A stretch of DNA of 12,873 bases from a virus (lineage: Duplodnaviria; Heunggongvirae; Uroviricota; Caudoviricetes). Positions 4,160 through 7,117 of this stretch are shown piece by piece. The notes below the pieces were generated by a model. That model saw only the letters and a list, made by a program, of their open reading frames with translations. It made no database searches and was not told the origin of the DNA. Every line of letters starts with the position of its first letter. Position 1 is the stretch's first letter. The translations under genes and the position numbers were made by a program. The stretch lies in the IMG/VR virus record IMGVR_UViG_2909309443_000005; one strand, written 5' to 3'.

Positions 4160-4468
4160 GTGACTCACATGACAAAAACAGTATCAACCAGTAAAAAACC
4201 CCGTAAACAGCATTCGCCTGAATTTCGCAGTGAAGCCCTGAAGCTTGCTGAACGCATCGGTGTTACTGCCGCAGCCCGTGAACTCAGCCTGTATGAATCA
4301 CAACTCTACAACTGGCGCAGTAAACAGCAAAATCAGCAGACGTCTTCTGAACGTGAACTGGAGATGTCTACCGAGATTGCACGTCTCAAACGCCAGCTGG
4401 CAGAACGGGATGAAGAGCTGGCTATCCTCCAAAAGGCCGCGACATACTTCGCGAAGCGCCTGAAATGA
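4160..4468 (+). CDS. insE: IS3 OrfA (transposase N-terminal / DNA-binding protein)
   Basis: 102-aa ORF starting [32 protein letters not shown]..., matching IS3 OrfA from memory; helix-turn-helix plus leucine-zipper-like C-terminus. Confidence 0.95.
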
Positions 4469-5331
4469 AGTATGTCTTTATTGAAAAACATCAGGCTGAG
4501 TTCAGCATCAAAGCAATGTGCCGCGTGCTCCGGGTGGCCCGCAGCGGCTGGTATACGTGGTGTCAGCGGCGGACAAGGATAAGCACGCGTCAGCAGTTCC
4601 GCCAACACTGCGACAGCGTTGTCCTCGCGGCTTTTACCCGGTCAAAACAGCGTTACGGTGCCCCACGCCTGACGGATGAACTGCGTGCTCAGGGTTACCC
4701 CTTTAACGTAAAAACCGTGGCGGCAAGCCTGCGCCGTCAGGGACTGAGGGCAAAGGCCTCCCGGAAGTTCAGCCCGGTCAGCTACCGCGCACACGGCCTG
4801 CCTGTGTCAGAAAATCTGTTGGAGCAGGATTTTTACGCCAGTGGCCCGAACCAGAAGTGGGCAGGAGACATCACGTACTTACGTACAGATGAAGGCTGGC
4901 TGTATCTGGCAGTGGTCATTGACCTGTGGTCACGTGCCGTTATTGGCTGGTCAATGTCGCCACGCATGACGGCGCAACTGGCCTGCGATGCCCTGCAGAT
5001 GGCGCTGTGGCGGCGTAAGAGGCCCCGGAACGTTATCGTTCACACGGACCGTGGAGGCCAGTACTGTTCAGCAGATTATCAGGCGCAACTGAAGCGGCAT
5101 AATCTGCGTGGAAGTATGAGCGCAAAAGGTTGCTGCTACGATAATGCCTGCGTGGAAAGCTTCTTTCATTCGCTGAAAGTGGAATGTATCCATGGAGAAC
5201 ACTTTATCAGCCGGGAAATAATGCGGGCAACGGTGTTTAATTATATCGAATGTGATTACAATCGGTGGCGGCGGCACAGTTGGTGTGGCGGCCTCAGTCC
5301 GGAACAATTTGAAAACAAGAACCTCGCTTAG
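4465..5331 (+). CDS. insF: IS3 OrfB (DDE transposase catalytic domain; expressed as OrfAB by -1 frameshift)
   Basis: 288-aa ORF overlapping the orfA stop in the -1 frame; contains DDE/rve-type residues (…WAGDITYL…[10 protein letters not shown]…SFFHSLKVE…). Confidence 0.95.
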
Positions 5332-5361
5332 GCCTGTGTCCATATTACGTGGGTAGGATCA

Positions 5362-5888
5362 TCCACCCTAAAACTATGACCAAGTATGAGATCGTCATCG
5401 TAACTACAATTGCCGTGAATATGTATGATTTGCTCGTCTGGAACGGCATAGATCTGCTGCAAGGTATTTGTATAATTAAATGAAAAATAGATGCTTTCTC
5501 TTGGTATGGGCGGGATGTATTGCTTAGGATTGTAAGCATCGGCTATGTTAATCCCTTTAACCCAATCAGCGAATTGCTCCTTCAAACGAGCTGACAGCAT
5601 TTGTGTGATTTTATTTACTTCATATTGGTAATCGTGATGATAAGCATCGCTCCAATCATCGGTATTGTATGAAGCCAAAAATATCTCACTGTTTTGAAGG
5701 ATAAGCTCATAATCAATTTCACCTAAAGCATTTTCTAACTCATTCCACTCGTCCCCAGCAGGAATGTATTCTTCTATCGCGTCATATAGATCTTGGTCAT
5801 TTTTTTCTACATACGACTTAAAGTGCTTGTATCCTGTTGGTAAGCCATGACGCATGTCAAATCCATTTCCTATTATGTAAAGCCTCAT
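5362..5888 (-). pseudogene. AbiH-like abortive-infection protein, N-terminal ~175 codons, 3'-truncated by IS3
   Basis: Minus-strand ORF from ATG 5888 (SD AAGGGA 6 nt upstream) encodes MRLYIIGNGFDMRHGLPTGYKHFKSY...SFNYTNTLQQIYAVPDEQIIHIHGNC. The N-terminal IIGNGFD..HGL motif and the FNYT...IHIHG motif are typical of the AbiH family as I recall it. The frame runs into the IS3 right end at 5361, and the last 11 codons of the six-frame ORF (5328-5361) are IS3-derived. Confidence 0.6.
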
Positions 5889-6202
5889 TGTTTTTCCCTT
5901 AGTCGAATTGTATAAAAATACTAACATGGCCTGCTCCACGTTGACTACTATCCCCTCCTTTGAGTAATGCCTTCATCAGATGTAACAACATTTGCGAGCT
6001 TCCACAGTTCGCTCAAAGCGGACTAGAAGGTTAGCTTGCGTCGGACTTGGCGTATTTAAAGAAGTGCTGGTGGAGACTGGTTGTTGTGTTCCATTTCTAC
6101 AGAACAAAATCACAGAAACTATACCCAATAGTTATATTGAATCAATGATGAGACAGCCTCATATTTATCAGGACTGGTGTACGTCCAATACAGGAGGTTG
6201 TC

Positions 6203-6292
6203 GTGCTGGTTCTCAAATGTGCGCTAGCTATTGCGGCTGTAATGGCAATTTATTGTCTTGCTGTTGTTCTTACGGATCGCCTTTCTGATTGA
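6203..6292 (+). CDS. Hypothetical 29-aa hydrophobic peptide (GTG start): MLVLKCALAIAAVMAIYCLAVVLTDRLSD
   Basis: Consensus SD AGGAGG (6192-6197) with 5-nt spacer to GTG 6203; the frame is open for 29 codons to TGA 6290-6292. The peptide is one predicted transmembrane helix with a short polar tail. Absent from the ORF track because of the GTG start. Could be a chance ORF. Confidence 0.25.
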   Translation: MLVLKCALAIAAVMAIYCLAVVLTDRLSD

Positions 6293-6299
6293 TTTTATA

Positions 6300-6328
6300 T
6301 TGGCGAGGTGACGTGAGTTAAGTAGAAT
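6300..6328 (+). promoter_or_regulatory. Putative sigma70 promoter for mok/hok mRNA (-35 TTGGCG, 17-bp spacer, -10 TAGAAT)
   Basis: Sequence-based hexamer match about 120 nt upstream of the mok start, consistent with the long structured leader of hok-family mRNAs. Not experimentally anchored. Confidence 0.3.
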
Positions 6329-6369
6329 TGCTGCGGGTGCTTGAGGCTATCTGCCTCAGGCATGAACAC

Positions 6370-6460
6370 CAAAGGCAGATAGAGAAAAGCCCCAGTTAAC
6401 ATTACGCGTCCTGCAAGACGCTTAACATTAATCTGAGGCCAATTTCATGCTAGACACATG
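6370..6460 (-). ncRNA. Putative Sok-type antisense RNA region (approximate, inferred by analogy)
   Basis: In hok/sok loci Sok is transcribed antisense across the mok translation-initiation region. A weak candidate promoter on the minus strand (-35 TTGCCT at 6486-6491, -10 TAACCT at 6463-6468 in plus coordinates) is the only sequence support. Boundaries are guesses. Confidence 0.25.
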
Positions 6461-6659
6461 TAGGTTAGCCTCTTACGTGCCGAAAGGCAAGGAGAAGCAG
6501 GCTATGAAGCAGCAAAAGGCGATGTTAATCGCCCTGATCGTCATCTGTTTAACCGTCATAGTGACGGCACTGGTAACGAGGAAAGACCTCTGCGAGGTAC
6601 GAATCCGAACCGGCCAGACGGAGGTCGCTGTCTTCACAGCTTACGAACCTGAGGAGTAA
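6447..6659 (+). CDS. Mok (modulator of killing) reading frame, in-frame N-terminal extension of Hok
   Basis: ATG 6447 preceded by GAGG. The 70-aa product MLDTCRLASYVPKGKEKQA-MKQQKAM... has the same architecture as chromosomal MokC of K-12, as I recall it. Confidence 0.6.
   Translation: MLDTCRLASYVPKGKEKQAMKQQKAMLIALIVICLTVIVTALVTRKDLCEVRIRTGQTEVAVFTAYEPEE
6504..6659 (+). CDS. hokD: Hok/Gef-family type I toxin (HokD/RelF-like), 51 aa
   Basis: MKQQKAMLIALIVICLTVIVTALVTRKDLCEVRIRTGQTEVAVFTAYEPEE matches my recollection of E. coli HokD (RelF) and is close to HokC/Gef. SD AAGGAG lies 9 nt upstream of ATG 6504. A GC stem-loop (GGCGAGGG...CCCTCGCC, 6667-6688) follows the stop. Confidence 0.9.
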   Translation: MKQQKAMLIALIVICLTVIVTALVTRKDLCEVRIRTGQTEVAVFTAYEPEE

Positions 6660-6728
6660 GAGACCAGGCGAGGGAGAAATCCCTCGCCACCTCTGATGTG
6701 TCAGGCATCCTCAATGCACCCGCACTTA

Positions 6729-6752
6729 ACCCGCTTCGGCGGGTTTATTTTA
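6729..6752 (+). terminator. Intrinsic terminator downstream of hok (CCCGC-TTCG-GCGGG hairpin plus T-rich tail)
   Basis: Stem 6730-6734 / 6739-6743 with a GNRA-like TTCG loop, followed by TTTATTTT at 6744-6751. Confidence 0.6.
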
Positions 6753-7117
6753 TCTGTAAATATTTTTATAAAAATAATGCCCACACACAGCATAAAACAA
6801 AAAGTATCACAGATAAAAAAGGAGCGTAATGTGCAGATTTGTTGTTTTCCATATTTACTCACTTTAACATAATCAATATTGATATGGTTGTTGTTTTGGT
6901 GGTTTCAAACGAGATGTTATGGTGATCTGGTAAAATTGCATAACATTAAAATTTAATTTATCTAATCGCTTTTAATAATAAGCGTTGTGTTTATCCCAAC
7001 AATCTGTTGTTTGACTTTTATTCCATTAATGTAGGGGCTTTACACTGGAACCAGTTTATTTATACTTTATACGCCAGCCTGAACAACTGGCACCTGCTGC
7101 GCCAGCAGAGACAACCG

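What the first reader, a model, noticed from the sequence alone, without database searches (positions are those of the whole stretch)
6300..6760. hok locus with its own mok leader, not the relBE-hokD arrangement recalled for K-12
Seen in sequence: an in-frame mok extension (ATG 6447), the hok CDS (6504-6659), a long leader with a 10-bp inverted repeat (CTATCTGCCT at 6346-6355 and AGGCAGATAG at 6373-6382), a GC stem-loop right after the stop (6667-6688) and an intrinsic terminator (6729-6752). Established knowledge: hok mRNAs are regulated by leader and 3' fold-back structures and a Sok antisense RNA. Inference: this copy may be a functional type I toxin-antitoxin module stabilising the prophage remnant; the sok promoter I could find is weak.
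Basis: partly seen in the sequence, partly recalled or inferred. Interest (0 to 1): 0.45.

Follow-up and report, generated by a model that had tools for sequence, protein, structure and literature searches.

The report
Complete hokD/mok/sok toxin-antitoxin cassette
This is an intact copy of a well-known small "host-killing" toxin gene, hok, with its own leader and antisense-RNA antidote; it sits in a decayed prophage of E. coli, is the common form of the locus, and the cut-down K-12 version is the exception, so the finding is correct but ordinary.

Summary
Window 6300-6753 carries a complete hok/mok/sok type I toxin-antitoxin cassette. Rfam's sok/hok-leader model matches 6335-6509 (119.9 bits; threshold 59). 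Hok (6504-6659) is identical to K-12 HokD and matches Pfam HOK_GEF. An in-frame mok ORF starts at 6447.

Folding reproduces the plasmid R1 switch:
- The nascent 5' end forms a metastable hairpin.
- In the full-length mRNA the 5' tac pairs with the 3' fbi, and ucb covers the mok ribosome site (z = -11).
- In the 3'-trimmed form tac pairs with ucb and the Sok-target hairpin forms.

The predicted antisense Sok is 73 nt (6455 to 6383, minus strand). Its promoter looks weak by consensus, but a 30-nt stretch covering it is identical to a published probe for hokW-sokW of Sakai prophage 5. That locus is 94% identical to this one and is an experimentally shown type I system.

The window is a Qin-like prophage remnant without relBE. 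K-12 homology begins only at the hok ribosome site. The full leader occurs in 4302 of 5426 complete E. coli genomes; the K-12 relE-hokD junction occurs in 1165.

No disabling mutation was found, and mok ATG is present in 72 of 72 alleles. Expression and any stabilising role remain untested. Already known; low interest. One side observation: the Sok-recognition block (6440-6461) is hypervariable.

The parts
6300..6328 (+). hok promoter: -35 TTGGCG (6300-6305), 17-nt spacer, -10 TAGAAT (6323-6328)
   Evidence: Promoter scan, 9 of 12 matches. The -10 is conserved in related alleles; the -35 lies outside the conserved cassette and varies.
6335..6753 (+). Full-length hok mRNA (predicted, about 419 nt)
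   Evidence: The Rfam model starts at 6335. The start lies 7 nt after the -10. Fold z = -11.2.
6335..6346 (+). tac (translational activator element), GGGUGCUUGAGG
   Evidence: Pairs with fbi in the full-length fold and with ucb in the trimmed fold. Identical in 71 of 72 alleles.
6337..6363 (+). Metastable hairpin of the nascent transcript; tac is sequestered by 6353-6363
   Evidence: Inverted repeat 6338-6347 / 6353-6362. The first 34 nt fold into this hairpin at -19.6 kcal/mol.
6347..6382 (+).
   Evidence: Part of the first stem of the Rfam model. Compensatory A-U to G-C changes occur in 5 alleles (pair 15/48).
6387..6395 (+). ucb (upstream complementary box / anti-SD), AAGCCCCAG
   Evidence: 6389-6395 pairs with the mok SD in the full-length fold. 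6387-6393 pairs with tac in the trimmed fold.
6435..6439 (+). mok Shine-Dalgarno, GAGGC
   Evidence: 8 nt upstream of ATG 6447. GAGG is invariant in 72 alleles.
6435..6472 (+). Sok-target (sokT) hairpin: mok SD paired with dcb (GCCUC, 6468-6472); loop CUAGACA
   Evidence: Trimmed fold, isolated fold, and the third stem of the Rfam model.
6447..6659 (+). mok ORF, 70 codons, in frame with hok
   Evidence: The ATG is present in 72 of 72 alleles.
6383..6455 (-). Predicted Sok antisense RNA, 73 nt: 9-nt free 5' tail, long hairpin, U-rich tail
   Evidence: Ends placed by alignment to the annotated K-12 sokC. Fold -30.3 kcal/mol, z = -5.5. sokW is reported to have 71 nt of complementarity.
6462..6490 (-). 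Sok promoter: -35 TTGCCT (6490..6485), 17-nt spacer, -10 TAACCT (6467..6462)
   Evidence: Alignment with the R1, sokC and sokB promoters. Exact match of the hokW paper's oligo YO-597 at 6463-6492, minus strand.
6490..6494 (+). hok Shine-Dalgarno, AGGAG
   Evidence: Read from the sequence. Conserved in 70 of 72 alleles. This is the point where K-12 homology starts.
6504..6659 (+). hok (hokD) CDS, 51 aa
   Evidence: RefSeq protein WP_000813254.1 both in the twin of this window and in K-12. Pfam PF01848. PHROG 251.
6667..6688 (+). 3'-UTR hairpin; likely stop for the 3' trimming (inferred)
   Evidence: 9-bp perfect stem. Conserved, with pair changes GU/AU/GC (helix 17). No T run follows, so it is not a terminator.
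6696..6708 (+). Segment that pairs with the mok start region (6447-6459) in the full-length fold
   Evidence: Inverted repeat I7, 13 nt, 85% complementary. Helix 6.
6709..6721 (+). fbi (fold-back inhibitory element), CCUCAAUGCACCC
   Evidence: Pairs with tac. The helix is paired in 99.5% of cells across 71 distinct alleles.
6728..6753 (+). Intrinsic terminator of hok mRNA
   Evidence: Terminator scan. The stem is conserved in most alleles.

Best explanation
Window 6300-6753 is a complete, apparently undamaged hok/mok/sok type I toxin-antitoxin cassette. It is the full-length form of hokD and a close relative of hokW-sokW of Sakai prophage 5. It lies in the nin-to-Q region of a decayed Qin-like lambdoid prophage.

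Proposed mechanism, taken from the plasmid R1 model:
1. A modest promoter makes a roughly 419-nt hok mRNA.
2. While the RNA is still nascent, its 5' tac element is held in a metastable hairpin.
3. Once the 3' end is made, fbi pairs with tac. ucb covers the mok ribosome site, so the RNA is neither translated nor bound by Sok.
4. Slow 3' trimming, probably back to the 6667-6688 hairpin, removes fbi.
5. tac then pairs with ucb. The mok ribosome site moves into the Sok-target hairpin with dcb.
6. The short-lived 73-nt Sok RNA binds there through its free 5' tail, and the duplex is destroyed.
7. If Sok runs out, mok is translated, hok translation follows, and the 51-aa Hok peptide damages the inner membrane.

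Shown here: every sequence element, the predicted alternative folds, and their conservation. Inferred: transcription, processing, Sok turnover, killing, and any biological role.
For: - Rfam RF01794 matches at full length, 119.9 bits, E = 1.9e-27.
- Pfam HOK_GEF at 81.6 bits; PHROG 251 'MokW-like host killing'.
- The Hok protein is identical to K-12 HokD, which was toxic as a control in the preprint read.
- The full-length fold shows tac-fbi and ucb-SDmok pairing, z = -11.2.
- The trimmed fold shows tac-ucb and SDmok-dcb pairing.
- The nascent 34 nt form the metastable hairpin. These three states match the R1 model as described in PMC9841398.
- The Sok strand aligns with R1 sok and with the annotated sokC and sokB, giving a promoter, a +1 site and a terminator. 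Its fold shows a free 5' tail plus a hairpin.
- The Sok promoter stretch is identical to that of sokW. The locus is 94% identical to hokW-sokW, which was shown experimentally to be a type I system.
- In 72 distinct alleles tac, ucb, mok SD, mok ATG, dcb, hok SD and fbi are conserved, and this allele carries the consensus state at each.
- 13 base pairs change on both sides, against 5.2 expected; 0 of 500 shuffles reach this.
Against: - There is no expression data for this strain.
- The Sok promoter matches the consensus at only 7 of 12 positions and was not picked up by the scan.
- The terminator T tract is interrupted (TTTATTTTAT), a rare variant among the alleles.
- Chromosomal hokA, hokB and hokC loci tested earlier neither mediated post-segregational killing nor responded to rifampicin (Pedersen and Gerdes 1999, as summarised).
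- The structure tested was derived from this very sequence, and most pairs never vary. The pair counts therefore show conservation more than covariation.
Confidence: 0.85

Rival explanations
1. The cassette is intact in sequence but physiologically silent. It is a hitch-hiking relic of the prophage: it is transcribed and kept off by Sok, but it neither stabilises the remnant nor gives any phenotype.
For: [quoted passage not shown]
- The surrounding prophage is heavily decayed: IS3, IS1, and truncated AbiH, pin and ydfJ.
Against: - All regulatory elements are at the consensus state, and there is strong conservation across 72 alleles.
- The full leader is present in 4302 of 5426 genomes.
- A chromosomal single copy of R1 hok is lethal without Sok (PMC9841398).
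Confidence: 0.3
2. Its evolved role is that of hokW-sokW. In an inducible lambdoid phage, Sok is lost on induction and Hok helps early lysis and phage release. In this dead remnant that role is orphaned.
For: - 94% identity to hokW-sokW, with the same Sok promoter.
- The same position between the replication genes and Q in intact phages such as HannyBb and VT2-Sakai.
- In Sp5, sokW disappears and HokW appears after mitomycin C in a RecA-dependent way, and phage yield halves without the locus.
Against: - Here the early region, lysis genes and structural genes are gone, so the role cannot operate.
- The reported effect in Sp5 is only about two-fold.
- The Sok 5' tail and the Hok C-terminus differ from hokW.
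Confidence: 0.35
3. It acts as an abortive-infection defence. Infection by a lytic phage shuts off host transcription, Sok decays, and Hok kills the cell before the phage matures.
For: - R1 hok/sok on a high-copy plasmid reduced T4 plating by 42% (cited).
- An AbiH-family gene fragment lies immediately upstream, suggesting a defence neighbourhood.
Against: - The preprint found no enrichment of hok near defence systems.
- The AbiH copy is truncated by IS3.
- Nothing was tested for this allele.
Confidence: 0.15
4. The locus is defective because of a subtle lesion not visible by comparison, for example a dead hok promoter, since the -35 lies outside the conserved cassette.
For: - The conserved block starts at 6315/6316, so the -35 differs between alleles.
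- The terminator T tract is atypical.
Against: - The -35 here, TTGGCG, is the second commonest variant (18 of 72 alleles), and the -10 TAGAAT is the conserved form.
- There are no frameshifts, stops or IS insertions inside 6315-6746.
Confidence: 0.07

Closest known systems
hokW-sokW of Sakai prophage 5 (VT2-Sakai), Takada et al. 2021, PMC8621323
   Same: - 94% nucleotide identity over window 6315-6731.
- The same leader architecture.
- The stretch covering the Sok -35, spacer and five of six -10 bases is identical.
- A long Sok (71-73 nt) with an extended hairpin.
- The same place in the lambdoid genome, upstream of Q.
   Different: - The Hok C-terminus is ...FVDYESEK in HokW and ...FTAYEPEE here.
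- The Sok 5' tail and target loop differ: GUUCAGCAUGGAUUGAG in sokW, GUCUAGCAUGAAAUUGG here.
- The hokW locus lacks the hairpin terminator found here.
- hokW sits in an inducible Stx2 phage; this copy is in a dead remnant.
K-12 relB-relE-hokD (relF) operon in the Qin prophage
   Same: - Identical HokD protein.
- 98.4% identity over window 6490-6746: hok SD, CDS, 3'-UTR hairpin, fbi and terminator.
- The same prophage type, with ydfU and Q downstream.
   Different: - K-12 has relE where this window has the hok promoter, tac, ucb, mok start, Sok target and Sok promoter.
- K-12 hokD is co-transcribed with relBE (PMC3598666) and has no Sok.
- The K-12 form is in 1165 of 5426 genomes; the full leader is in 4302.
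hok/sok (parB) of plasmid R1
   Same: The same set of elements in the same order: promoter, tac, metastable partner, ucb, mok SD/ATG, dcb, hok SD, hok, fbi (alignment; folds; model described). mok is in frame with hok and 70 codons long in both.
   Different: - The sequence is distant: 44% amino-acid identity is reported for HokW against Hok.
- This Sok hairpin carries about 17 extra nucleotides.
- R1's copy is on a plasmid with proven post-segregational killing.
K-12 hokC/mokC/sokC (gef)
   Same: About 76% nucleotide identity over the leader and CDS. mok is in frame. The annotated sokC gave the Sok 5' and 3' ends by alignment.
   Different: - The K-12 hokC copy has IS186 directly downstream in place of the fbi region.
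- The sokC -10 is CACTCT and the Sok hairpin is shorter.

Membership tests
[quoted passage not shown] | Small hydrophobic toxin of the Hok/Gef family | tested here: met
   Pfam PF01848 at 81.6 bits (cut-off 22). PHROG 251. Identical to K-12 HokD.
[quoted passage not shown] | mok leader ORF with its own SD that overlaps hok | tested here: met
   ORF 6447-6659, with SD GAGGC at 6435-6439. The ATG is kept in 72 of 72 alleles.
[quoted passage not shown] | Leader RNA with the conserved secondary structure of the family | tested here: met
   Rfam RF01794, model positions 1-157 of 157, 119.9 bits against a gathering score of 59.
[quoted passage not shown] | 5'-3' end pairing (tac-fbi) in the full-length mRNA, with the mok SD covered by ucb | tested here: met
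   MFE fold. Inverted repeats I3 and I14. The helix is paired in 99.5% of cells over 71 alleles. This is prediction only, not structure probing.
[quoted passage not shown] | Alternative tac-ucb and SDmok-dcb pairing after loss of the 3' end; metastable 5' hairpin in the nascent RNA | tested here: met
   Folds of 6335-6700 and of 6335-6368.
[quoted passage not shown] | cis-encoded antisense Sok gene (promoter, free 5' tail, terminator hairpin) overlapping the mok start | tested here: met
   Promoter TTGCCT-17-TAACCT, aligned with R1, sokC and sokB and identical to sokW over the probe stretch. Fold. Met at the sequence level only.
[quoted passage not shown] | Sok RNA is made, is unstable and represses hok; hok mRNA is processed at its 3' end; Hok kills when Sok is lost | not testable with these tools
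   Needs Northern or RNA-seq, a rifampicin chase and genetics. Shown for the 94%-identical hokW-sokW and for R1.
K-12-type relBE-hokD operon | relE directly upstream of hokD, with homology to full-length loci starting only at the hok SD | tested here: not met
   The annotated twin of the window has no relB or relE. The leader is continuous from 6300. K-12 matches only 6490-6746.

The most novel reading that the evidence does not exclude
The 22-nt block 6440-6461 covers the Sok-target loop, mok codons 2-5, and Sok positions -6 to +16. It may be a specificity module under diversifying selection or frequent exchange. If so, each hok/sok cassette in a poly-lysogenic E. coli answers only to its own Sok, and this window carries one of at least 27 specificity types.

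Supporting evidence:
- Pairwise diversity in the block is 0.318, against 0.0225 at four-fold sites of the adjacent hok gene and 0.08 in the rest of the leader.
- Entropy in the block is about 20 times that of the coding region.

Limit of the evidence: co-resident copies differed in 7 of 7 pairs, but chance alone gives that result about half the time.

A similar idea has been put forward for zor/orz (PMC11264685).
Probability: 0.35. Interest if true: 0.4.

Novelty: already known. Interest (0 to 1): 0.15.

Why it matters
The finding matters little in itself. The toxin is annotated as hokD in RefSeq, and the RNA family is in Rfam. A 94%-identical prophage copy has been studied experimentally, and the enrichment of hok in prophages has been surveyed.

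The useful corrections are these:
- The K-12 relBE-hokD arrangement, often taken as the reference, is the derived minority form.
- Automatic annotation of loci like this one omits mok and sok.
- A Sok promoter that looks weak by consensus is nonetheless the functional one in the studied homologue.

The hypervariable Sok-recognition block would be worth a proper population study.

Tried and rejected
- **Promoter scan.** The generic scan did not find the Sok promoter at its 9-of-12 threshold. It was placed instead by alignment to sokC, sokB and R1 and by the published hokW oligos.
- **R1 mok frame.** I recalled R1 mok as being out of frame with hok. The R1-type sequence fetched here shows it in frame, so the in-frame extension is the standard arrangement and not a peculiarity.
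- **Co-resident copies.** I tested whether co-resident cassettes avoid sharing the same Sok-recognition block. All 7 within-genome pairs differ, but the chance of that is about 0.5, so it gives no support either way.
- **Small ORF coordinates.** My first coordinates for the small upstream ORF were off by one, and the calls failed. The correct coordinates are 6203-6292.
- **Small ORF and ORF 5992-6288.** Pfam and PHROGs give nothing for either.
- **Literature.** A search for 'sokD' or 'mokD' found no paper using those names.
- **IS disruption.** I considered IS disruption of the kind seen in K-12 hokC and rejected it. The cassette is collinear with 72 alleles.

Full report
**What is there.**
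- ATG 6447 opens a 70-codon ORF that runs in frame into hok (6504-6659).
- The 10-bp inverted repeat is real, but its first arm is 6347-6356, one base to the right of what was reported. It is the core of a 21-nt imperfect repeat.
- The 9-bp GC hairpin 6667-6688 and the terminator (stem 6728-6745 plus a T-rich tail) are confirmed.
- Rfam's family RF01794, named 'sok' but modelled on the hok-leader strand, matches 6335-6509 over its whole length at 119.9 bits against a gathering score of 59, E = 1.9e-27. The match has one roughly 17-nt insertion in the second hairpin.
- The toxin matches Pfam HOK_GEF (81.6 bits) and PHROG 251 'MokW-like host killing'.

**Where it is.** The window is E. coli chromosome. 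It is 99.9% identical over its full length to a group of human diarrhoeal isolates. In the annotated twin the order of features is:
- rspB, then integrase, excisionase and exonuclease;
- IS3, then an AbiH fragment;
- hokD, a hypothetical gene, ydfU (DUF968) and the Q antiterminator;
- IS1, a recombinase fragment, ydfK, ynfT and a truncated ydfJ.

This is a Qin-like lambdoid prophage remnant. Its Hok protein (WP_000813254.1) is the same as K-12 HokD. There is no relBE. K-12 strains match only window 6490-6746, that is, from the hok Shine-Dalgarno onward. In K-12, hokD (relF) is the third gene of the relBEF transcript (PMC3598666).

**Anatomy.** I aligned the locus with an R1-type hok/sok, with K-12 hokC/mokC/sokC and hokB/sokB, and with K-12 hokD. 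This places the following elements:
- hok promoter: TTGGCG-17-TAGAAT, 6300-6328
- transcript start: about 6335
- tac: 6335-6346
- ucb: 6387-6395
- mok SD: 6435-6439
- mok ATG: 6447
- dcb: 6468-6472
- hok SD: 6490-6494
- fbi: 6709-6721

Thermodynamic folding reproduces the three states of the R1 model as summarised in PMC9841398.
- The first 34 nt form a hairpin that sequesters tac, at -19.6 kcal/mol.
- In the full-length RNA (6335-6753) tac pairs with fbi and the mok SD pairs with ucb. The energy is -178.2 kcal/mol and z = -11.2 against shuffles.
- With the last 53 nt removed, tac pairs with ucb and the mok SD pairs with dcb. This forms a hairpin, 6435-6472, with loop CUAGACA.

These are predictions. 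No probing data exist for this allele.

**Sok.** On the minus strand, alignment with the R1 sok promoter and with the annotated sokC and sokB gives:
- -35 TTGCCT (6490..6485), a 17-nt spacer and -10 TAACCT (6467..6462);
- a start at about 6455;
- a terminator hairpin followed by GGGGCUUUUCU, ending near 6383.

The 73-nt RNA folds into a 9-nt free 5' tail plus one long hairpin, at -30.3 kcal/mol and z = -5.5. This is the same shape as the corresponding RNA of Sakai prophage 5.

However, oligo YO-597 from the hokW-sokW paper matches the window exactly at 6463-6492 on the minus strand. It covers the -35, the spacer and five of the six -10 bases. In that paper sokW RNA was seen by Northern, and mutations at the -10 abolished protection against HokW. 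The authors describe the system as partly dependent on RNase III and Hfq. The VT2-Sakai locus is 94% identical to window 6315-6731.

**Population check.** I retrieved loci by similarity to HokD from one-genome-per-species contigs and from IMG/VR. Among them, 72 distinct alleles of at least 85% identity carry the whole leader.
- tac is identical in 71 of 72.
- ucb, the mok SD, dcb, the hok SD and fbi are nearly invariant.
- The mok ATG is present in 72 of 72.
- This window carries the consensus state at each element.

On the full-length structure, 96.1% of cells are paired. Thirteen pairs change on both sides against 5.2 in shuffles, and 0 of 500 shuffles reach that number. Because the structure was derived from this sequence and most pairs never vary, this mainly documents conservation.

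In the 5426 complete E. coli genomes:
- the leader (6330-6530) is at least 80% covered in 4302, with a median of two copies per genome that has a match;
- the K-12 relE-hokD junction is found in 1165.

The arrangement in the window is therefore the common one. In intact lambdoid phages the cassette sits between the replication genes and Q. The conserved block runs from about 6315 to 6746.

**Function.** The mechanism I commit to is the R1 one, applied to this cassette, with 0.85 confidence that the module is intact and regulated in that way. The biological role is open.
It runs against the negative results for chromosomal hokA, hokB and hokC (summarised).
- The prophage homologue hokW helps lysis and phage release after induction. 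That cannot operate in this remnant, which lacks early, lysis and structural genes.
- Abortive infection is possible but untested. The preprint found no enrichment of hok near defence systems.

**Novelty.** The finding is already known. The gene is annotated as hokD, the leader is in Rfam, and a near-identical prophage cassette has been characterised. The distribution of hok in prophages has also been surveyed. The finding is correct and ordinary.

**Side observations.** The block 6440-6461 is by far the most variable part of the cassette. It corresponds to the Sok 5' tail, the sequence just upstream of the Sok start, and the target loop.
- Entropy is 0.79 bits there, against 0.04 in hok.
- Pairwise diversity is 0.318, against 0.0225 at four-fold sites of hok.
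- There are 27 variants among 96 loci.

This would fit selection for Sok specificity between co-resident copies, as proposed for zor/orz. My co-residence test had no power.

Among the alleles, mok is in frame with hok in 61. In 8 it ends at a TGA overlapping the hok ATG, and in 3 it is in another frame. This suggests that translation of mok matters and its peptide product does not.

A conserved, unannotated 29-codon hydrophobic ORF with a strong SD lies just upstream, at 6203-6292.

Noticed in passing
window 6440-6461: This is the hypervariable block inside an otherwise conserved cassette. It covers the Sok-target loop, mok codons 2-5, and the Sok start region and 5' tail. There are 27 variants among 96 loci. 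Pairwise diversity is 0.318, against 0.0225 at four-fold sites of hok. It may be a Sok-specificity determinant. The co-residence test was not significant.
   Followed up: partly
window 6203-6292 (+): An unannotated 29-codon ORF, VLVLKCALAIAAVMAIYCLAVVLTDRLSD, with a strong SD (AGGAGG) and a GTG start, lies directly upstream of the hok promoter. It is intact, with conservative or synonymous changes, in 10 diverged loci. It is also present in four lambdoid phage genomes, where it is not annotated on that strand. It has no Pfam or PHROG match. It may be a real small membrane protein.
   Followed up: partly
window 5328-5936 (-) and 4169-5331: An AbiH-family abortive-infection gene covers only profile positions 1-183 of 260. 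Its 3' end abuts an IS3 element, so it looks truncated by the insertion.
   Followed up: partly
A3 alleles, equivalent of window 6447-6506: The mok reading frame differs between alleles. It is in frame with hok in 61 of 72. In 8 of 72 it is a 19-codon ORF ending at a TGA that overlaps the hok ATG. In 3 of 72 it is in a third frame. The N-terminal Mok peptide is not conserved, which suggests that translation of mok matters and the peptide does not.
   Followed up: partly
window 6315-6746: The conserved cassette has sharp borders: left at 6315/6316 in most loci, right at 6746. The hok -35 hexamer therefore lies in variable flanking DNA. The cassette behaves like a moron inserted between the replication genes and Q of lambdoid phages.
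   Followed up: partly
window 6642-6645: The Tyr47 codon TAC followed by G (UACG) is invariant in all 72 alleles. The Hok preprint states that hokC, hokD and hokE mRNAs undergo TadA A-to-I editing that recodes this tyrosine to cysteine.
   Followed up: no
window 6447-6459 with 6696-6708: In the full-length fold the mok start codon region pairs with a 3'-UTR segment just upstream of fbi (13 nt, 85% complementary). Both sides vary among alleles, and the helix is paired in 85.5% of cells.
   Followed up: no
L140 (VT2-Sakai) 2900-2960: The experimentally active hokW locus lacks the GC hairpin terminator that follows fbi in this window and in most alleles. Its 3' end must be formed differently.
   Followed up: no
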